DNA from: a virus
DNA: 64,000 nucleotides
IMG/VR virus record: IMGVR_UViG_3300046794_000505
Coordinates: 1-64,000 of that record
Reading direction: 5' to 3' (one strand)
The translations under genes and the position numbers were made by a program. Shown here piece after piece: positions 1 to 59,953 of the stretch. The notes below the pieces were generated by a model that was not told where the DNA came from, searched no databases, and was given only the letters and a program-made list of their open reading frames with translations. Every line of letters begins with the position of its first letter. Position 1 is the stretch's first letter.

Positions 1-932
1 ACGTGACCAACGAAGTCGACGCCGCGATCCACGGGTTGCAGGATGGTCTTCGTCGGGTTCAACTTGGCGCCAAGGCTCGGCAGGAATGCTTCGACCTCAG
101 CCTTCCAAGCGTTGAGCTGTTGCGGAGACTCATGCAGGAACACGAAGTCGTCGACGTAGCGGATGTAATGCTTGGCGCCGAGCTGGTGCTTCGCGAACTG
201 GTCCAGCGCGTTCAGGTACACGTTGGCGAAGAACTGCGACGACAGGTTACCGATCGGCAGGCCAAGGTGCGCCGGCTGCGCGGTGAGGCGCTTGTGCTGC
301 GGTACCCGGTTGAACAAATGGGCCGGGCTGCGCACCTCGTAATTCTCGCGAGGGTCGTGCATCAGGATCTGTTCGGCGAGTGCCAACCACCATGGCTCGG
401 TGATCTTCGTGGCCAACTGTCGGCGCAGCACCTCTTTGTCGATCGCGACGAAGAAGTTGGCCAAGTCCAGCTTCAAATAGAAGACCGGCTTCGACCAGTT
501 CTGACTGGCGCTGCGAATCTTCGCCTCAAGGCGCTTTGCGGCGTACAGCGTGCCGCGACCGGGAATGCAGGCGCAACTGTCCGCTATGAAGCTGGCGTAG
601 AAGCGCGGGGCCACACGGTTGTACAGCAGGTGGTGGACGACGCGGTCCCGGAAGGCTGCGGCCCAAACCTCGCGGGCTTTCGGCCGAGTGACCACGAAGC
701 ATATCGATCGGCCTGGCCGGTAGGTGCCGGCGAGCAGGTCGTCGTGTAGACCGATCAGGTTCTTTTCCAGGTCCATTTCGAAAGCCAGCGCGCTGGCGCT
801 GTTGCGCTTCGAGCGCCGGCAGTCGTAGTAGGCCTGGACCAGATCGCTGAACGGGTAGGGACCAACATTCGAATCTGCGGACGGGGCGGACGCGGAGCTC
901 GTTGTACTTGTCGTCGCTGACCTGATAGCCAT
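1..932 (-). CDS. DGR reverse transcriptase (3' end runs off the window)
   Basis: Hand translation of the minus strand (absent from the ORF track because there is no stop in the window): ...FSDLVQAYYDCRRSKR...KAREVWAAAFRDRVVHH...LKLDLANFF...GLPIGNLSSQFFANVYL...YIRYVDDF...GVDFVGH. The GLPIGNLSSQ and YVDD motifs are typical of DGR RTs. First in-frame ATG is at 932-930, inside the TR. Confidence 0.96.
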   Translation of the reverse strand, partial: MAIRSATTSTTSSASAPSADSNVGPYPFSDLVQAYYDCRRSKRNSASALAFEMDLEKNLIGLHDDLLAGTYRPGRSICFVVTRPKAREVWAAAFRDRVVHHLLYNRVAPRFYASFIADSCACIPGRGTLYAAKRLEAKIRSASQNWSKPVFYLKLDLANFFVAIDKEVLRRQLATKITEPWWLALAEQILMHDPRENYEVRSPAHLFNRVPQHKRLTAQPAHLGLPIGNLSSQFFANVYLNALDQFAKHQLGAKHYIRYVDDFVFLHESPQQLNAWKAEVEAFLPSLGAKLNPTKTILQPVDRGVDFVGH

Positions 933-975
933 CAGCGAAGTTCATGTTGAATGCGTTGTTGGCGGAGCGCTGCGA
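872..975 (-). repeat. DGR template repeat (TR)
   Basis: About 104-bp copy of the 3' ends of both target genes, AAC-rich (tcg cag cgc tcc gcc aac aac gca ttc aac atg aac...). Differs from VR2 only at adenines. Lies between avd and RT. Confidence 0.95.
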
Positions 976-1146
976 CCTATCGTGCTATCTACGTCGCCAA
1001 GCCGAAGGCAGAGCCGATCAGCAAGGAAACTGCGCGAGACCAGCACGGACGCTTTAGACCGTCGGTATCTCTGATGCGCATGGCGGTGACCCAGAGGTCA
1101 GCGGCACGACCAGATTCAATTCGCACAGACCTGAAAGCCGTGACTC

Positions 1147-1503
1147 TCAGGTGGCGGGCGCGGTTGGGGTGGAGCGTTTCCAGGCATTGGCCTGCTTGCC
1201 GATTGAGGTGGTGACCTCGATCGCGGTGGCGTGCTGCCCGACACTGATGAACCGACTTTCCTTGAAAAGCCGCATCAGGAACTCGATCACCTGGACCTTC
1301 TCAACCAGCAAGGTCAGATGTGGGTGCTTGTCCCGGGTCGAGTTAGCCCGGGCAATCAACATCAGCACGTCGATGCACTCGTCGATGACGCGCTTCCCGA
1401 GAGACTGCTTGAGATCTCGAGGAATGTTGCGGGTGAGGTTCGTGGACATCTGAAGCAGGCCCAGCGAAGCCTTATAGATCGATAGTTCTGTGTGCATTCC
1501 CAT
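1147..1503 (-). CDS. avd: DGR accessory variability determinant (Avd, four-helix bundle)
   Basis: 118-aa basic helical protein (HTELSIYK...IPRDLKQSLGKRV...IGKQANAWKR) directly upstream of TR/RT. Confidence 0.9.
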   Translation of the reverse strand: MGMHTELSIYKASLGLLQMSTNLTRNIPRDLKQSLGKRVIDECIDVLMLIARANSTRDKHPHLTLLVEKVQVIEFLMRLFKESRFISVGQHATAIEVTTSIGKQANAWKRSTPTAPAT

Positions 1504-1525
1504 TGCAGTGAATCTCCATGAATAG

Positions 1526-1550
1526 CAACCGGCCGCAAGCGACCGGATTG
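1526..1550 (-). other. Hairpin downstream of VR1 (candidate DGR target-recognition stem-loop)
   Basis: Minus strand ccggtcgc-tt-gcggccgg, about 15 nt after the target-1 stop codon. Confidence 0.55.
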
Positions 1551-1560
1551 AATAAATGAA

Positions 1561-2181
1561 TCAATCGAATAATTGGCTGCGGACGGGGCGGACGCGGAGC
1601 TCGACGCACTTGACGCTGAGGCTCTGAAGGCCATCATCGAAGTACATGAAGAATGCGTTGTCGGCGGAGCGCTGCGAACTCGACCAGTACCAGGTGTCTC
1701 GGAAGGCTTCAGCACCACCTTCTTGGAAGGCTTCCAGAGTGGTCTGGGTTGGCGATTTATCGCTGTACAGTAGGCCTACCGGCTCGCTGTTCGGGTTGTC
1801 ACCATCGCGCCAGCCTGCCCAGTTCGTTTCGGTGATCGGCTTGAAGTGGCGATACTGCAGCTCTTGTACGTCGCGCGCCGGGATTGCCCAGTCGCTGAAT
1901 CCGCCGATCACCAAGGCCAGAGTCTTCTGTGCCAGTTCGCTACCAGCAGCGGCCATTGCCTCGGTGTTGCCGCGACTATCAGTGAGGCTATCGGCGCCCT
2001 CGATCTTCACTCCGTACTCGCCGTAGGCACCGGTCAGTTCGTGCGCGGCGCCGGCGGTGATGTTCAGGTAGCGCTTTCCCGTGTCCGGGTCGCGGGTGAT
2101 GCCAGAGAAGAAGCCGCCACCGTAGGGCTGGCCAATTTCAGGGATTGTCATTGCTGGCGCTGCTTTCTCTACTGCGGACAT
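1561..2181 (-). CDS. DGR target protein 1 (DUF1566/CLec-like C-terminus)
   Basis: IGQPYGGGFFSG...DWAIPARDVQEL...YWSSSQRSA...ELRVRPVR. The C-terminus is VR1. GAGG RBS precedes ATG 2181. Confidence 0.9.
   Translation of the reverse strand: MSAVEKAAPAMTIPEIGQPYGGGFFSGITRDPDTGKRYLNITAGAAHELTGAYGEYGVKIEGADSLTDSRGNTEAMAAAGSELAQKTLALVIGGFSDWAIPARDVQELQYRHFKPITETNWAGWRDGDNPNSEPVGLLYSDKSPTQTTLEAFQEGGAEAFRDTWYWSSSQRSADNAFFMYFDDGLQSLSVKCVELRVRPVRSQLFD
1577..1677 (-). repeat. DGR variable repeat VR1
   Basis: Aligns ungapped to TR with 11 mismatches at TR adenines and 6 at non-A positions confined to the TR core. Confidence 0.9.
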
Positions 2182-2257
2182 GGTCTTTCCTCTTTTCGAA
2201 GGCAACAAAAAGGCGCTGCTGTGCCCGGTGCCGGATCAAGAATGGATGAATGAAGGA

Positions 2258-2857
2258 TTAAATAAACAATCTGCGGACGGGGCGGACGCGGAGCTCGTAG
2301 TACTTGCCGTCGCTGACCTGATAGCCATCAGCGAAGTGCATGTAGAATGCGCCGTTGGCGGAGCGCTGCGCACTCGTCCAGTACGCCCCTGTGGTGATCA
2401 GGCCGTTGACCCACACCTGGTGCATATCGGCAGGTGAACCCAAGAAGAAGTCATGGTGACCGTCGGAGGTGTACTTGGCGGCAGCATTGGCGGCAGGATG
2501 ATCACCTTCCGTGAGAAGGATCTCGGTGTTCCTCATGCCGTCCCATTTACTGGTGGCGCCTGACTCGGTTCCGCGACCGCCCCACGCGTGCTCACCGACG
2601 TCTTCAGTGGCGAGGATGAGGTAGTGCGCAGGGATATTGCCGCGAGCCGGAACCGGACCACCGTTGATGCCGCCTTGGCCCGGCCAGTACTCGCCGAGCG
2701 CCGGGATGGAGTAGGGCGCAATCGGTTGCACGTTGGCCGCAGGTGGCAACACCTGAGCAAACACGCTGGCCATGGCCAGTTGCGCGAGGGCAGCTGCTGG
2801 CATCTTGATGGTGGACTGCCCATGCTTAAGGGTGATCATTTCAGATTTCAATTTCAT
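2258..2857 (-). CDS. DGR target protein 2 (DUF1566/CLec-like C-terminus)
   Basis: LGEYWPGQGGINGG...YWTSAQRSA...ELRVRPVRR. The C-terminus is VR2. GGAG RBS precedes ATG 2857. Confidence 0.9.
   Translation of the reverse strand: MKLKSEMITLKHGQSTIKMPAAALAQLAMASVFAQVLPPAANVQPIAPYSIPALGEYWPGQGGINGGPVPARGNIPAHYLILATEDVGEHAWGGRGTESGATSKWDGMRNTEILLTEGDHPAANAAAKYTSDGHHDFFLGSPADMHQVWVNGLITTGAYWTSAQRSANGAFYMHFADGYQVSDGKYYELRVRPVRRLFI
2268..2370 (-). repeat. DGR variable repeat VR2
   Basis: Six mismatches to TR, all at TR adenines (AAC>GGC, AAC>TAC, AAC>CAC, GAC>GGC, AAC>TAC). Confidence 0.95.
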
Positions 2858-2903
2858 GCCATAACTCCCTGAGTAATTAATCGCGTTTTGTGTGTGCTGA
2901 TGC

Positions 2904-2932
2904 ATTATTCAGTAGTTACGACATTAAAGCAA
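2904..2932 (-). promoter_or_regulatory. sigma70-like promoter for the DGR operon
   Basis: TTGCTT-17-AATAAT about 45 nt upstream of target 2. Confidence 0.55.
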
Positions 2933-3098
2933 GATGGCTGACTGCTCATGCTGTCGACCAACCGGCGCCTTCACGGCAATCCAAAACTCTCCCTAGGTGA
3001 GGGCCTTCAGGAAGATGAGGTGATGCGTGATATTTTCAGTCATGGCCGCATGATGCGGTCAAAACGGACAGTCAATCGTGGAAATGGTATGAGATAGG

Positions 3099-5768
3099 CT
3101 AGGACTGCGATCTGCCCACTTCGCACCATACGCCCGTATAAATCTGACGCAGCACTAGCACCGAGTGCGATGAGGTAGGCGTGAAGCTAGCGCCTCCGTT
3201 TAAAAAGATAGTTGAGGCATTGTGTTGGATCGTCGTATTAGTATTACTGAAAGTGACTGTCAGCAATTGCCCGATTCGACCACCTAGAATGGCGGTAACA
3301 GTCACCGCACTTGCCTGGTTAAAGTTCAGGATATCGGCTGAAGCCAGTCCGGTTGTCGAGCCCAGTCCTATGGATGGCGTACCTCCTAAGGTGGCGTAAG
3401 AGATTCGTCGGATATTCCGCTCCCAAAGACCCATAACGGCGCCCGCATCAGGCCCGGCATTGTTACTAAAATTCTGGTCAAAATGAGAGTCTTCGAGATG
3501 GATACGGTTCTGCGCCGTATAGCCCCCCGTATAGTTAAATCCGTAACCAGAGGCCGCACCGTACGTCGACACGGTTCGGAAATAGGGGCGGCGCACGTGT
3601 AGATCTACAGCACTGGCAGCGTTAAAGAAATAGCCGCTGTTAGAGGTATTATGCAAACACATATCGAATTCGATGCCTGCGCCATCATTGACGTACACGT
3701 CGAATTGATTCGTGGATCCGTCCGCTATCTTGCCATTGTTCGTAAAATAATTATTGACGAACTTACAATTTCTAGGCAGATCATTCCCGCCTGCTGAGTT
3801 CACGTGGACCGCGTTATACCGGGCCTGCTCAACTTGGAATCCGATGAATTGGGTATTATAGACACCAGCTCCTAGCGTCACACCATGATCACTTGAATAA
3901 CTCACCTGCCCGCCGATAAACACTAGTGGTCCAAATGTGCCCTGGGTCACGCCATTGCGACCCAGGTAGATCCCGTTAGCTTTATAGACGTCCAGATTGG
4001 TGACGACCCACATATTGATCTGGCCGCCGCTCGTATCACTATGCAGGTACAGCCCCTTGCCGGTCCAGGTTCCATCGGATGGGTCGTCACCGCGAATCTG
4101 GACGTTATCGACGCGCACACCCCAATCGTTCTCGCTGTTCCACCCATAACCAGCGCCGTTGCGCTGCCGGATGAACATGTTATTCAGGCTAACCAGCTCT
4201 GTGCAATCCTGCGTGTGCAGCACGCTGGCCGAGGTTGTCGCCCCTACCAGGTTTACCCGCTCAAGGGTGACGCACATGGCCGTACCGCCAGGAGACGACA
4301 CACTAAAGACCCCCAAGATTCCCAGCAAAGTACCGGTAGATCCTGCCGCATGCACCAAGGCCGAGCCTTGGGGCTCCTGCGCTCCGGTCGCAATGCCGGC
4401 TGCATTCCCCATAATATGAATACGACCTGGTTTTGCAGCATACCCTGGGTTTAAAGTTGCGTCGTAGTAGCCGTAAAGGTCTCCAGTACGGTATTTCGCT
4501 CCAGCTTTAAGGCGGATAGATCGCCCTGCAATTGAGGCAAAATTGAGCATGTTCTGAAGTGCAACGGTATTTAAGGTTCCAGTACCTGTGGTGTAATTGT
4601 AATCACCGACTGCTCCAAAATCCTCTGGTGACAAAGGCATATCAAGCAATTTTCCCAGAAAGCTGCGGGCAACCGCCCCCGTTCCAGATTGGATAAATCC
4701 AAGAAAAGCACTTGTGACAAATGTTGCTATATTAGCGAGTGTCGTTTGCAGAAGCCCGACACCGCGGCTGGCCGGCAACGATTCCGAGCCAGTCAGCGTC
4801 CCTACATCTGGCGCAGTGTTCAATCCTTGCAGAAATGCCGCAAGAACGCGAGACCCACTGAAGTACAGATTAGTGGCCCCCTCGGTTACCGCATCCGTAG
4901 ACCCTGGCGAAGCAATGATCGGTGCATAGGCCGATCCAGCCCAGCGGAACTGAGAACTGGTTACGCCGCCAGATGTGTAAGGAGTGTCAGTGACGTAAAT
5001 CTTGCCTGACTCGCCGGTCACCGGCAGGGATGCGAAATCGGCGAACTCCAGGACGTCGTCAACATAGGACGGCAGCTGCGAAGACGGCACGACCCCGCCG
5101 ACCAAGCTGGCGATTGATACGCCGACGGCCGTCGGTTGAACTGCGGTGTCAGCCTTTACGCCTTGGGCCGCCGTGGCAGCGCCAATGTCGGATGGGGCGG
5201 ACGGGATAGAAGGCTTGCTCAACAGATCGCTGTAGGAACCGGAGGTGGCAACTATAGCTAGAGCGCCAGGCTGTACAGCTGTGTCGGCCTTGGCACCCTG
5301 CGCAGCTGTCGCGGCTCCGATATCAGATGGAACCGAAGGGATCGCCGGTTTATTCGACAAATCGACATAGGAACCAGACGTCGCGACGACGGATAGGTCG
5401 CTTGGCTGAACCGCGGAATCTGCCTTACTCCCCTGCGCCGCAGTAGCCTTCCCATCCAGCGCCGATTGCAACCCGGACACAGTATCAATCGCCTGCGTCC
5501 CGGTATGGTTCGAGCGCGCCCGAAGAAACACATCTGTCGAGTTAGCTGTCGCGCCGATCTCGATTGTGGCTAGTTTCTCATTGATGGCGGTCAGGTCTTG
5601 GATAGGACCCGGCGGCCCACGCAGCTGACTCTCGATCGTCCTGATGCCGAAGCCCTGAATGGATGAGGCGTCCACCGTCTGGATGGTGAACTTCAGGTTT
5701 GTGCCGGCCAGGAGCATTTCACCCGTTGCAGTGATAGTGCCCAGGCGACTGACCGTAGCAATGATCAT
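3099..5768 (-). CDS. Tailspike / depolymerase-like receptor-binding protein
   Basis: N-terminal (DIGA)ATAAQGxKADxAVQP repeats, tailspike junction motif QSGTGAVARS...SPEDFGAVGD, then an Asn/Gly-rich beta-helix-like body. Confidence 0.75.
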   Translation of the reverse strand: MIIATVSRLGTITATGEMLLAGTNLKFTIQTVDASSIQGFGIRTIESQLRGPPGPIQDLTAINEKLATIEIGATANSTDVFLRARSNHTGTQAIDTVSGLQSALDGKATAAQGSKADSAVQPSDLSVVATSGSYVDLSNKPAIPSVPSDIGAATAAQGAKADTAVQPGALAIVATSGSYSDLLSKPSIPSAPSDIGAATAAQGVKADTAVQPTAVGVSIASLVGGVVPSSQLPSYVDDVLEFADFASLPVTGESGKIYVTDTPYTSGGVTSSQFRWAGSAYAPIIASPGSTDAVTEGATNLYFSGSRVLAAFLQGLNTAPDVGTLTGSESLPASRGVGLLQTTLANIATFVTSAFLGFIQSGTGAVARSFLGKLLDMPLSPEDFGAVGDYNYTTGTGTLNTVALQNMLNFASIAGRSIRLKAGAKYRTGDLYGYYDATLNPGYAAKPGRIHIMGNAAGIATGAQEPQGSALVHAAGSTGTLLGILGVFSVSSPGGTAMCVTLERVNLVGATTSASVLHTQDCTELVSLNNMFIRQRNGAGYGWNSENDWGVRVDNVQIRGDDPSDGTWTGKGLYLHSDTSGGQINMWVVTNLDVYKANGIYLGRNGVTQGTFGPLVFIGGQVSYSSDHGVTLGAGVYNTQFIGFQVEQARYNAVHVNSAGGNDLPRNCKFVNNYFTNNGKIADGSTNQFDVYVNDGAGIEFDMCLHNTSNSGYFFNAASAVDLHVRRPYFRTVSTYGAASGYGFNYTGGYTAQNRIHLEDSHFDQNFSNNAGPDAGAVMGLWERNIRRISYATLGGTPSIGLGSTTGLASADILNFNQASAVTVTAILGGRIGQLLTVTFSNTNTTIQHNASTIFLNGGASFTPTSSHSVLVLRQIYTGVWCEVGRSQS

Positions 5769-6076
5769 GGAGCCACCCCTGGCGGGGTTACGGGCTTGAT
5801 CACCTGAATTTCTTCAGACGCAGTAGTGGTCACCTGATCGGAATCGGTAGTGTATCGGATGTCGAAGTAATATGTCCCTTGGGGCCACAACGTCGAATCA
5901 CCTTTCAGCAAGATTTTCCCGCCGGCGCGATCCGTGTATTCAATGACCAGTTCAGCGATGACTCCTGAGCTATTCCCTACGCACGAGCGAATAGACCACA
6001 GCGTCAAGTCTTGTGAATGCCCGTCCACGGTAATATGTAGTGGCAGGAGAAAGCTGTCGCCTTGTTTGATGATCAT
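5765..6076 (-). CDS. Virion accessory protein (BppU N-terminal-like adaptor)
   Basis: IKQGDSF...DLT...GTYYFDIRYT pattern; coupled to the tailspike; late motif upstream. Confidence 0.55.
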   Translation of the reverse strand: MIIKQGDSFLLPLHITVDGHSQDLTLWSIRSCVGNSSGVIAELVIEYTDRAGGKILLKGDSTLWPQGTYYFDIRYTTDSDQVTTTASEEIQVIKPVTPPGVAP

Positions 6077-6110
6077 CGGTTCTGGCCCGCGAAACTGAAT
6101 GCTATGGGCG

Positions 6111-6126
6111 CATCATGCCGTCACGA
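6111..6126 (-). promoter_or_regulatory. Putative late promoter (TCGTGAC-N2-YANNNT)
   Basis: TCGTGAC GG CATGAT upstream of the 6076/tailspike operon. Confidence 0.65.
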
Positions 6127-58229: not shown

Positions 58230-58427
58230 CTAAGTGGCTGGCATCGCCGACTTATCAGAACTGGAGAATTTTTCAGTCGCGGGATCATAGGTGAATCCTG
58301 GAGAAACATTATCCCCGTCCTTGACTGGAATAAGCGAAATACCATCAGGCTGCGGCCAACCACTCTCACCATCCCAAATGGCAACGTTCTTAACTACTCC
58401 CTTATAAACCATTGCATAAATTCCCAT
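58230..58427 (-). CDS. Tail fibre assembly-like protein
   Basis: YAMVYKGVVKNVAIWDG; directly follows the fibre gene. Confidence 0.65.
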   Translation of the reverse strand: MGIYAMVYKGVVKNVAIWDGESGWPQPDGISLIPVKDGDNVSPGFTYDPATEKFSSSDKSAMPAT

Positions 58428-59953
58428 TATGCATACTCCTCAATAATTACTGCGCCAGCATTACCAGTAACACCTACCTGAGCTGCTACACTTGAGCCAA
58501 CCGCTACACCGCCTGGCCCTGCGCCTGGTCCTGTCCCTGTCAAGTATCCACCGCCTGATACGCTGCCACCTGCACCACCACCGGTTCCAGTTATGGGTGA
58601 TCCACCGCCAGTTCCAGAAACACCAGCGCCGGTCGTGATAAAAATGGCTGGAGTACTTGGTGCTCCCTTGATGTTGATTGTGGAGCCGCCACTGGAATCT
58701 CCACCAACACTAGGCTGCAGAATATAAGCTGCGGCGGATGCTACCCCCGCAAGACCGCCTACGCCACCATTGGCAGTCATTCCTATAAAAGATGAATTTC
58801 CCCCTGTTCCTCCATTCCCCGCTGAGACGCCAGTGCCGCCCGCACCTACAGTCACTGTTGCGGGGAGCGTGCCGATCGCTGCAACGGTCATAGTTCCTTC
58901 GCTATATCCGCCACCCCCACCGCCACCAGCGACAGAATTCTGGGTTGATGATGTAGCAGGGGTACCACCACTTGCACCACTACCACCTATAACTCGGACA
59001 CGTACCGTATTAGTGCTTGCCAATGGAGTAAAACTACCGCTGCTTGTGAAAACCGTGATTTTTAAAAATCTTCCAGTGGCCTGCCCTAATTGCATGGCAT
59101 GGTTACTTTTTGTTGCGGCAGCGACCTGCTCTGCCGAACCGGTACAGAACAGCAGAATGTATGAACCTCCGCCGACAGAAGTATTCCATTGCACCCACGC
59201 GTCACCGTTGGCAACAAGCTCTCCACCTTGAAGAGCAGAATGCGCACCGCCAACCAGAGCCACGACACCCAAGCCATCGTTGAAGGTCGATGCGCCGGTA
59301 TTGGATGTCTTGACCTTGAAGCGCAGCGGCTGCTGTTCACTGCGAGCGGTAATAGCTGGAGTGAAAGCGCAGACGTAAGTATTAGCCGTGCCGGTATCCA
59401 CCGCAGCCGTATTATTGACCACGGCATCCGCCACGAAAGCTGTACTGGCCACCTGCGTCGTCTTTGTGCCCGCTGCGGCTGTTGGTGCAGTTGGAGTTCC
59501 GGTCAGTCCAGGACTTGCCAGTGGCGCTCGAGAAGTATCAATGGGATGAACATGATCTTCGCGGCTAAGGGCTGTTGCTGAACCAGCAGCGGCCGTACCA
59601 TTCATCAATGGGGTGGCTGTAGATATCGCGCCAGCCGCTGCCGTACCTAACTGAACCGTCCAGTTTGCAGGGTTGAATGCACCTGGAGAAATCGCAGTAT
59701 TTGCCTGCCAAATATTCAGCTGATAAATGACCTGCTGACCACCTGTGTATGAGTTCCCGGTACTGAACGCCGGGATGCCAGTCCCTTTAAGCAGGTTGAG
59801 TGCATCTACCTGAGATTTTAACCAGTTGGTCCGATTTGCCAGGCCTTTGGCTTGCAGGTTGGAAATACCATTGACGCCACCAATGACGGCATCGTCCAGT
59901 TCAATCTGGTAAATACCGGCATCATAACTGGTGGATTCTGGAAGGTTAGACAT
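58427..59953 (-). CDS. Tail fibre protein (Gly-rich C-terminus)
   Basis: GIYQIE..D..IGG..GISNLQAKGLANRT, SREDHVHP, LTGTPTAPT, Gly-rich tip ending GAVIIEEYA. Confidence 0.88.
   Translation of the reverse strand: MSNLPESTSYDAGIYQIELDDAVIGGVNGISNLQAKGLANRTNWLKSQVDALNLLKGTGIPAFSTGNSYTGGQQVIYQLNIWQANTAISPGAFNPANWTVQLGTAAAGAISTATPLMNGTAAAGSATALSREDHVHPIDTSRAPLASPGLTGTPTAPTAAAGTKTTQVASTAFVADAVVNNTAAVDTGTANTYVCAFTPAITARSEQQPLRFKVKTSNTGASTFNDGLGVVALVGGAHSALQGGELVANGDAWVQWNTSVGGGSYILLFCTGSAEQVAAATKSNHAMQLGQATGRFLKITVFTSSGSFTPLASTNTVRVRVIGGSGASGGTPATSSTQNSVAGGGGGGGYSEGTMTVAAIGTLPATVTVGAGGTGVSAGNGGTGGNSSFIGMTANGGVGGLAGVASAAAYILQPSVGGDSSGGSTINIKGAPSTPAIFITTGAGVSGTGGGSPITGTGGGAGGSVSGGGYLTGTGPGAGPGGVAVGSSVAAQVGVTGNAGAVIIEEYA

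What the first reader, a model, noticed from the sequence alone, without database searches (positions are those of the whole stretch)
1..2932. Phage DGR diversifying two tandem non-tail proteins from one template
Seen: promoter - target2(VR2) - target1(VR1) - avd - TR - RT in one minus-strand operon. Both VRs share the invariant GC-rich 3' block gagctccgcgtccgccccgtccgcag with TR. The targets are ~200-aa DUF1566/CLec-like proteins with different N-termini and no signal peptide or fibre repeats. They sit behind a sigma70-like promoter, not the late motif. The tailspike (3099-5768) and tail fibre (58427-59953) carry no VR. Known: the model phage DGR (Bordetella BPP-1) diversifies a tail-tip adhesin. 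Inference: here the hypervariable ligand-binding surfaces probably act inside the cell (for example binding defence proteins or rival-phage proteins), possibly as a two-subunit combinatorial binder.
Basis: partly seen in the sequence, partly recalled or inferred. Interest (0 to 1): 0.85.

Follow-up and report, generated by a model that had tools for sequence, protein, structure and literature searches.

The report
Mobile phage DGR with two lectin targets
A complete Pseudomonas myovirus carries a working, horizontally acquired hypermutation cassette (a DGR) that rewrites the tips of two small free-standing lectin-type proteins; the cassette family is already common in Pseudomonas prophages, and where its proteins act (in the cell or on the virion) is still open.

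Summary
On the minus strand lie target2 (2258-2857), target1 (1561-2181), Avd (1147-1503), RT-15 RNA (973-1163), TR (872-974) and the RT (1-932). The RT is not truncated: the contig is a circle with a 127-nt overlap, and the RT is 387 aa with YVDD.

VR2 differs from TR at 6 sites, all TR adenines. VR1 differs at 17 sites, 6 of them non-A. All 6 lie where relatives' TRs have A. So this TR itself lost 7 adenines, VR2 was rewritten afterwards, and VR1 was not.

The 3.07-kb cassette (T2 start to RT stop) is 77-84% identical to cassettes in 44 Pseudomonas phage and prophage loci. There it sits in the early recombination operon. This scan has found that family before on other DNA. Here it lies in an unrelated, integrase-less myovirus, flanked by a duplicated promoter-like element, beside the remnants of a deleted helicase gene.

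"Non-tail, intracellular" is only partly supported. The same domain family (phrog_4245) ends tail proteins in other phages. Backbone relatives carry a T1-like gene at the end of the same fibre module. No terminator separates the fibre unit from T2. I found no evidence for a T1-T2 complex.

It is a new member of a known kind. The mutated TR is a curiosity.

The parts
1..932 (-). DGR reverse transcriptase, N-terminal 310 codons in the window. The ORF continues across the circular junction to contig base 85418 (387 aa in all). Its start codon lies inside the TR.
   Evidence: Pfam RVT_1 at E 1.4e-16. Joined ORF of 387 aa with YVDD and LGLPIGNLSSQ, 88% identical to the Cruim01 RT.
872..974 (-). Template repeat (TR). 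It has 24 adenines in the 100-nt core, against 31-32 in relatives.
973..1163 (-). RT-15 structured RNA (Rfam RF03018), ending exactly where the TR begins.
   Evidence: cmscan 183 bits (gathering score 82), E 5.5e-46, full-length model match.
1147..1503 (-). Avd accessory protein (118 aa).
   Evidence: Pfam bAvd 46.6 bits (cut-off 40). 83-97% identical to the Avd of related loci.
1561..2181 (-). Target 1 (206 aa), a free-standing DUF1566/phrog_4245 domain protein.
   Evidence: more than 1000 relatives, all Pseudomonas where named.
1577..1677 (-). VR1. 17 mismatches to the present TR (11 at A). All 17 fit the A-rich ancestral TR seen in relatives. Not rewritten since the TR changed.
2258..2857 (-). 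Target 2 (199 aa): a conserved N-terminal beta-hairpin plus hydrophobic helix (residues 7-36), a linker, then a DUF1566/phrog_4245 domain.
2268..2370 (-). VR2. 6 mismatches to the TR, all at TR adenines. It shares all 7 derived TR bases.
2901..2932 (-). Promoter-like element TTGCTTTAATGTC-N7-CTGAATAATGCA (TTGCTT-N17-AATAAT), copy A. Copy B lies at contig 85320-85289, just after the RT. The two copies form a direct repeat flanking the cassette.
   Evidence: It occurs only twice in the genome. It is single-copy in relatives L077/L078, where it precedes the NDT-like/ParB/PAPS-reductase genes.
2901..3061 (-). Remnants (5' about 100 nt and 3' about 68 nt) of a 1517-1532-aa helicase gene that is intact in backbone relatives. 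Includes a decayed late-promoter motif at 3074-3060.
   Evidence: blastn to L077/L078. phrog_62 helicase. Motif scan.
3099..5768 (-). 889-aa fibre/spike of an optional accessory fibre module. It carries no VR.
   Evidence: Its N-terminal 54 aa are shared with the L078 fibre module. The module is absent from the complete relative G001. No TR-like match.
5765..6076 (-). 103-aa first gene of the fibre module, headed by an exact late motif starting at 6126 (minus strand).
   Evidence: 71% identical in L078/L080. Motif scan.

Best explanation
This is a complete and recently active diversity-generating retroelement of the Pseudomonas-phage family T2-T1-Avd-(RT-15 RNA)-TR-RT.

How it works. The RT and Avd copy the TR RNA into cDNA with random substitutions at adenines. 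The cDNA then replaces the last ~100 nt of two genes, recoding about 15-20 codons of a C-type-lectin-like (DUF1566/phrog_4245) binding surface.

Origin (shown by comparison). The 3.07-kb cassette was acquired horizontally as one unit from temperate Pseudomonas phages. It entered the accessory island of an integrase-less 85.6-kb myovirus. It landed just downstream of a sigma70-like promoter element, which became duplicated, and an adjacent helicase gene was deleted.

History (inferred). The TR itself took up mutagenised sequence and lost 7 of about 31 adenines. VR2 was afterwards rewritten from the new TR. VR1 was not.

Function (inferred, my lean). The two targets are free-standing receptor-binding-type lectin domains. 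They work independently of the particular tail: soluble hypervariable binders expressed with accessory rather than core structural genes. What they bind, and where, is not shown.

Confidence by part: genuine complete DGR about 0.97; horizontal acquisition as a unit about 0.9; the TR history about 0.75; the functional lean about 0.45.
For: DGR parts:
- All parts are present and intact.
- A-specific mismatches: VR2 6/6; across 35 related loci 1045 at A against 17 elsewhere.

Cassette as a unit:
- Homology to 44 related loci starts at the T2 start codon and ends 17 nt before the RT stop.
- The flanking 32-nt element occurs only twice in the genome and once in backbone relatives.
- Helicase remnants lie upstream of T2.
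- No integrase; the record is 100% complete.

TR history:
- 7 of 7 differences from the family consensus are at A (p = 2.8e-4).
- All 7 are shared with VR2.
- The sites where VR2 and TR agree and disagree interleave, which a single VR2-to-TR conversion tract cannot produce.
- All 6 non-A mismatches of VR1 fall at sites that are A in the SC_8_H2H8_2017 and Cruim01 TRs.

Backbone-independent role:
- The cassette sits in the early-left operon in 44 loci and in Cruim01.
- T1 and T2 N-termini are conserved across siphovirus and myovirus backbones.
- Neither protein has a tail-anchoring N-terminal domain, unlike the phrog_4245 tail proteins.
Against: - The phrog_4245 domain is a tail-protein C-terminus in other phages.
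- A T1-like gene ends the fibre module of close backbone relatives, with a start/stop overlap. Another follows the minor tail protein in PMBT3.
- In the window the cassette lies 240 nt behind a fibre gene on the same strand. No convincing terminator lies between the late promoter at 6126 and contig ~82.13 kb.
- The sigma70-like element is a weak match.
- No expression data, virion proteome or within-population VR data exist for any member.
- The fold was not confirmed structurally: models have pLDDT 61 and 44.
Confidence: 0.55

Rival explanations
1. T1 and T2 are detachable virion receptor-binding proteins. They are free lectin heads that dock non-covalently on a fibre or tail tip, as the small separately encoded adhesins of some phages do. 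The DGR would then tune host range as in Bordetella phage BPP-1.
For: - The phrog_4245 domain forms the C-terminus of minor tail proteins directly after the tape-measure and distal tail genes (L094, L105).
- It also stands alone right after fibre or tail genes (L078/L080, L104, PMBT3 gp024).
- The window cassette is co-directional with the fibre unit and unterminated from it.
- T2 has a conserved, confidently modelled N-terminal hairpin-helix that could be a docking element.
- Solved DUF1566 (Lcl) heads are trimeric tips on a stalk (PMC11162425).
Against: - In all 44 temperate relatives the cassette lies in the leftward early operon, more than 10 kb from the tail genes and on the other strand.
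- The same N-termini serve siphovirus and myovirus backbones with unrelated fibres.
- Adjacency to the fibre in the window is secondary to a 4.5-kb helicase deletion.
Confidence: 0.3
2. In this genome the cassette is a decaying passenger. The TR is eroding and VR1 is frozen, so the element no longer serves the phage.
For: - The TR has lost 7 adenines. The theoretical repertoire falls from about 5e17 to 4e13.
- VR1 is incompatible with the present TR.
- Orphaned targets without RT or TR are common in the family: Medea1, Aurca01 and 9 of the 44 loci.
Against: - All five ORFs and the RT-15 RNA are intact.
- VR2 carries 6 new A-site changes made after the TR changed.
- 24 adenines remain in the TR.
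Confidence: 0.08
3. At least T2 is exported or membrane-anchored through its N-terminal hydrophobic helix. The proteins would then act at the cell envelope, for example in superinfection exclusion or receptor masking.
For: - T2 has a conserved hydrophobic stretch at residues 20-36, preceded by a net-positive segment and followed by a (V/M)FA-Q motif.
- The Lcl N-terminal helix anchors that DUF1566 protein to the cell surface (PMC11162425).
Against: - Hydrophobicity is below the usual transmembrane threshold (1.0-1.56 over 19 residues).
- The 20 residues before the stretch are a conserved hairpin containing acidic residues, and the LPPAANVQP after it is conserved. Both are atypical for a cleaved signal peptide.
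- T1 and the third targets of relatives have no such segment.
Confidence: 0.1

Closest known systems
DGR cassettes of temperate Pseudomonas phages (Cruim01 PP179333, SC_8_H2H8_2017 MT121966, and 44 IMG/VR loci); not described as DGRs in the Cruim01 paper (PMC11256456)
   Same: Same five-part cassette, with two tandem DUF1566 targets, the RT-15 RNA upstream of the TR, and the RT start inside the TR. 77-84% nt identity over 3.07 kb. RT 88% identical.
   Different: The host backbone is an integrase-less myovirus. The cassette sits in the morphogenesis-strand accessory island rather than behind erf/exo. It lacks the conserved 103-aa upstream gene and has no third target. Its TR has lost 7 adenines.
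Bordetella phage BPP-1 DGR (mtd-avd-TR-brt)
   Same: Same mechanism class: an RT with Avd, adenine-specific TR-to-VR transfer, a GC-rich block at the VR 3' end, and a lectin-type variable surface at the target's C-terminus (my knowledge of the published system).
   Different: - One trimeric 381-aa tail-fibre tip protein there; two ~200-aa single-domain proteins here.
- The structured RNA lies 5' of the TR here.
- The TR overlaps the RT start here.
- The target context in the family is the early operon.
phrog_4245 / DUF1566 C-terminal domains of phage tail proteins (L094, L105), and stand-alone copies behind fibre genes (L078, PMBT3 gp024)
   Same: Same domain family (E 1e-26 to 1e-30), including the T1-type insertion.
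   Different: Those copies have no TR, VR or RT. Most are fused to a tail-anchoring N-terminal domain, which T1 and T2 lack.
Burkholderia phage Magia DGR (PMC7883833)
   Same: A temperate-phage DGR whose candidate VRs lie in 'relatively short reading frames' of two genes.
   Different: Unrelated sequence. The targets are ten genes apart. Only a genome announcement; no analysis of context or function.
Legionella collagen-like protein Lcl C-terminal domain (PDB 8q4e/8qk8 family)
   Same: The only solved-structure match by profile (E 0.0012): a DUF1566, C-type-lectin-like domain.
   Different: That protein is a secreted trimeric adhesin on a collagen stalk. It is not DGR-diversified.

Membership tests
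Diversity-generating retroelement (DGR) | Reverse transcriptase with the RT catalytic YxDD motif and the (I/L)GxxxSQ motif typical of DGR RTs, full length | tested here: met
   RVT_1 at E 1.4e-16. 387-aa ORF across the circular junction with YVDD and LGLPIGNLSSQ.
Diversity-generating retroelement (DGR) | TR/VR pair whose differences fall at TR adenines | tested here: met
   VR2 6/6 at A. VR1 11/17 at A, and the other 6 are explained by A-loss in the TR. Family-wide: 1045 at A against 17 elsewhere.
Diversity-generating retroelement (DGR) | Accessory variability determinant (Avd) | tested here: met
   Pfam bAvd 46.6 bits, above the cut-off of 40.
Diversity-generating retroelement (DGR) | GC-rich IMH-type element at the 3' end of each VR, with a diverged counterpart after the TR | tested here: met
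   A 26-nt identical GC-rich block in all three copies. The sequences diverge right after ...CCGCAG(ATT). Its function in homing is not testable here.
Diversity-generating retroelement (DGR) | VR encodes the ligand-binding face of a C-type-lectin-fold target | tested here: inconclusive
   Sequence level only: Lcl_C below the gathering score, phrog_4245 at 1e-26 to 1e-30, PDB profile hit at E 1e-3. The AlphaFold models are too poor (pLDDT 61 and 44) and Foldseek found nothing.
Diversity-generating retroelement (DGR) | Ongoing mutagenic homing in this genome | not testable with these tools
   No run holds this phage. No sibling contigs were found. Indirect sign: VR2 was rewritten after the TR changed.
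Mtd-type DGR-diversified tail-fibre adhesin | Target encoded in, and assembled with, the tail/fibre module | tested here: inconclusive
   In the early operon in 44 relatives. Here it is adjacent to a fibre gene, but through a deletion. T1-like genes end the fibre modules of backbone relatives.
Mtd-type DGR-diversified tail-fibre adhesin | N-terminal domains that join the protein to the fibre | tested here: not met
   T1 is the lectin-type domain alone. T2 adds only about 45 residues. No PHROG or Pfam tail domain was found.
Rfam RF03018 RT-15 RNA | Covariance-model score above the gathering threshold, next to an RT | tested here: met
   183.1 bits against 82, model positions 1-192 of 192, at 1163-973.

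The most novel reading that the evidence does not exclude
The phage lineage uses a DGR to diversify free, non-virion lectin-type binders that are made from a host-type promoter early in infection. These would be an 'adaptive counter-immunity' or rival-exclusion repertoire aimed at variable host or competitor proteins. The cassette would be portable between unrelated phages precisely because it needs no structural partner.
Probability: 0.2. Interest if true: 0.85.

Novelty: new member of a known kind. Interest (0 to 1): 0.45.

Why it matters
All experimentally understood phage DGRs retarget a tail adhesin. This Pseudomonas family is abundant: more than 1000 T1 relatives. It places its targets among early accessory genes, and this window shows that the whole cassette can hop into an unrelated virulent-type myovirus. 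That makes it a tractable case for asking whether DGR targets can work away from the virion.

The window also offers a natural example of a template repeat that has itself been adenine-mutagenised. Such a change erodes the element's coding repertoire and dates which VR was last rewritten.

The scan has met this cassette family repeatedly in prophages, and DGR surveys already list multi-target DUF1566 DGRs in Pseudomonas (PMC6642488). So the kind is not new.

Tried and rejected
- Structure: AlphaFold2 with 29- and 31-row alignments gave poor models (T2 pLDDT 60.7, T1 43.5). Foldseek against the PDB gave no match at E <= 0.001. No fold claim is made.
- Complex of T2 with T1: no verdict (score 0.01, controls not run). 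This is no evidence either way.
Contexts were taken from the search for related loci instead.
- Sequencing runs: no RNA holder is listed. The single wastewater run (5% of words) holds only short contigs of relatives' cassettes and says nothing about this phage.
- Exact-pattern scans for the cassette/backbone junction in viral contigs, and for the mutated TR in metagenome contigs, found nothing.
- Hairpins downstream of the VRs: VR1 has a 7-bp GC stem (1546-1529) and VR2 has none. Neither beats shuffles, so no claim is made.
- The protein atlas returned only the protein's own family.
- The papers on Cruim01, Medea1 and PMBT3 contain no virion proteomics and no mention of the DGR.
- I first read the 288-aa ORF after the RT as one ParB gene. 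Comparison with L077 shows an NDT-like gene followed by the ParB/IbrB-like gene.
- An 11-mer over-representation screen did not find the late motif. A degenerate-pattern search did.
Full report
**What is there**

The window is the first 64 kb of an 85,776-nt IMG/VR virus record. Its first and last 127 nt are identical, so the genome is a circle of 85,649 nt.

The minus strand from 2857 downwards carries, in order:
- T2 (2258-2857). The alignment with relatives puts its start at MKLKSEM, not at the upstream ATG at 2905.
- T1 (1561-2181).
- Avd (1147-1503), Pfam bAvd above cut-off.
- A full-length Rfam RT-15 RNA (1163-973), 183 bits.
- The TR (974-872).
- The reverse transcriptase, whose start codon lies inside the TR.

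The RT continues across the junction to contig base 85418. It is 387 aa long, carries YVDD and LGLPIGNLSSQ, and is 88% identical to the RT of Pseudomonas phage Cruim01.

**The repeats**

TR, VR1 and VR2 share an identical 26-nt GC-rich 3' block and diverge right after it. These three copies are the only ones in the genome, so neither fibre gene is a target.

VR2 differs from the TR at 6 positions, all TR adenines. VR1 differs at 17 positions, 6 of them not adenines. Those 6 fall at sites where the TRs of SC_8_H2H8_2017 and Cruim01, and the consensus of 35 related loci, have A.

Against that consensus the window's TR has 7 changes, all at adenines (p = 2.8e-4). That leaves 24 adenines instead of 31-32. 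The theoretical repertoire is about 10^4-fold smaller.

VR2 carries all 7 derived bases plus 6 further A-site changes. The sites where VR2 and TR agree and disagree interleave, so one VR2-to-TR conversion tract cannot explain the pattern. The simplest history has three steps:
1. The TR took up adenine-mutagenised sequence.
2. VR2 was then rewritten from the new TR.
3. VR1 has not been rewritten since.

A few relatives' TRs also carry one to three A-site changes.

**The family**

T1 has more than 1000 relatives. All that carry a name are from Pseudomonas.

In 44 IMG/VR loci the order T2-T1-Avd-TR-RT is conserved:
- 35 loci keep a TR. Their TR-VR mismatches are 1045 at A against 17 elsewhere.
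- Ten loci have a third VR in a T2-like gene 2-9 kb upstream.
- Nine loci, and the phages Medea1 and Aurca01, keep the targets but have lost the TR.

In these temperate siphoviruses the cassette follows the TolA-like, erf and exo genes of the leftward early operon, which ends at the integrase. Tail genes are on the other strand, more than 10 kb away.

Earlier notes of this scan describe the same layout in other genomes. DGR surveys already list Pseudomonas as DGR-rich, and multi-VR DUF1566 DGRs as common (PMC6642488).

**What is different here**

The backbone is a myovirus with tail sheath and baseplate genes. It has no integrase and shows no DNA similarity to known phages.

Homology to the prophage cassettes begins at the T2 start codon (2850) and ends 17 nt before the RT stop. 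So a 3.07-kb unit was transferred.

The unit is flanked by two copies of a 32-nt element, TTGyTTTAATGTC-N7-CTGAATAATGCA, at 2932-2901 and at contig 85320-85289. The element occurs nowhere else in the genome. In backbone relatives (L077, L078; protease 95-97% identical) it is single-copy. There it precedes the genes for an NDT-like protein, a ParB/IbrB-like protein and a PAPS-reductase-like protein.

Upstream of copy A lie the first ~100 nt and the last ~68 nt of a 1517-1532-aa helicase gene. That gene is intact in the relatives. The cassette's closeness to the fibre gene is therefore a by-product of a 4.5-kb deletion.

**Expression**

It matches 3/6 and 5/6 and fails the scan's criteria. Its conservation and duplication still suggest that it matters.

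The phage's own motif TCGTGAC-N2-YANNNT has 10 exact copies, most of them ahead of structural units. One starts at 6126 and heads the o103-fibre unit. One starts at 82013, ahead of the protease gene. A two-mismatch relic sits at 3074-3060.

Going down the minus strand from 6126, the first convincing terminator is at contig 82142-82119. Two things are therefore both possible: early transcription from the sigma70-like element, and late read-through from the fibre unit. The DNA does not decide between them.

**Function**

For a role that does not depend on the tail:
- The cassette sits in the early operon in every temperate relative.
- The whole cassette is portable between backbones.
- The T1 and T2 N-termini are unchanged across unrelated tails.
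- Neither protein has a tail-anchoring domain.

For a virion role:
- The same domain family (phrog_4245) forms the C-terminus of minor tail proteins that follow the tape-measure and distal tail genes (L094, L105).
- It stands alone right behind fibre or tail genes in L104 and in PMBT3 (gp024).
- In the window's own backbone relatives L078/L080, a 213-aa T1-like gene overlaps the stop codon of the last fibre-like gene. No RT was found in those records, which CheckV puts at 50-64% complete.

T2's N-terminus is a conserved hairpin plus hydrophobic helix, modelled at pLDDT about 70-83. It could be a docking, oligomerisation or membrane element. Its hydrophobicity is below the usual transmembrane threshold.

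I lean towards free, backbone-independent binders (about 0.45), against detachable virion adhesins (about 0.3). Nothing tested here speaks to defence proteins as ligands.

**Verdict**

This is a new member of a known and abundant DGR family in an unusual host genome. Its informative details are a mutated template, one stale VR and a clean insertion footprint.

Noticed in passing
window 872-974 (TR), compared with L002, L001 and L007-L050: The template repeat has itself undergone adenine-specific change: 7 of 7 differences from the family consensus are at A. A few relatives' TRs show 1-3 such changes. This looks like occasional cDNA-to-TR (self-homing) transfer in nature.
   Followed up: yes
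window 2901-2932 and contig 85289-85320: A 32-nt promoter-like element is duplicated as a direct repeat around the 3.07-kb cassette. It is single-copy in relatives. It is both an insertion footprint and a possible promoter for the cassette and for the downstream DNA-modification genes.
   Followed up: yes
window 2901-3074: 5' and 3' remnants of a ~1520-aa helicase gene (phrog_62), together with a decayed copy of the phage's late motif. The gene is intact in relatives L077 and L078.
   Followed up: yes
window 3099-6126; L078:445-2591; L077: The o103-plus-fibre unit is an optional, swappable module in this myovirus lineage. The window has an 889-aa fibre/spike. L078/L080 have 74-, 160- and 161-aa fibre-like genes plus a 213-aa DUF1566 gene. 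The complete relative G001 has none of these.
   Followed up: partly
L003 (Medea1), L004 (Aurca01), and L014, L021, L023, L024, L027, L043, L045, L046, L049: These loci have no TR. Medea1 and Aurca01 keep both targets, still carrying A-mutagenised VR sequence, but have no Avd, TR or RT. They are decayed cassettes.
   Followed up: partly
L007, L009, L014, L015, L016, L019, L030, L038, L041, L047: A third VR lies in a shorter T2-like gene 2-9 kb upstream in the same operon. Where it could be scored ungapped against a TR (8 of the 10 loci), the mismatches are almost all at A (1 non-A in total). The window has no third copy.
   Followed up: partly
contig 82119-85240 (outside the window, after the RT): The NDT-like, ParB/IbrB-like and PAPS-reductase-like genes and two small ORFs between them end at a strong terminator. 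The ParB-to-PAPS part recurs as a unit in 23 unrelated viral contigs, so it is itself a mobile module.
   Followed up: partly
one search hit list: Many relatives of T1 sit on Logan contigs of about 1.4 kb. That is about twice the ~0.7-kb spacing between neighbouring repeat copies, so assemblies probably break at the VR/TR repeats. DGR loci may be under-assembled in short-read data.
   Followed up: no
window 1529-1546: A 7-bp GC hairpin with a 4-nt loop lies about 30 nt downstream of VR1. VR2 has no counterpart. It is not better than shuffled sequence.
   Followed up: yes
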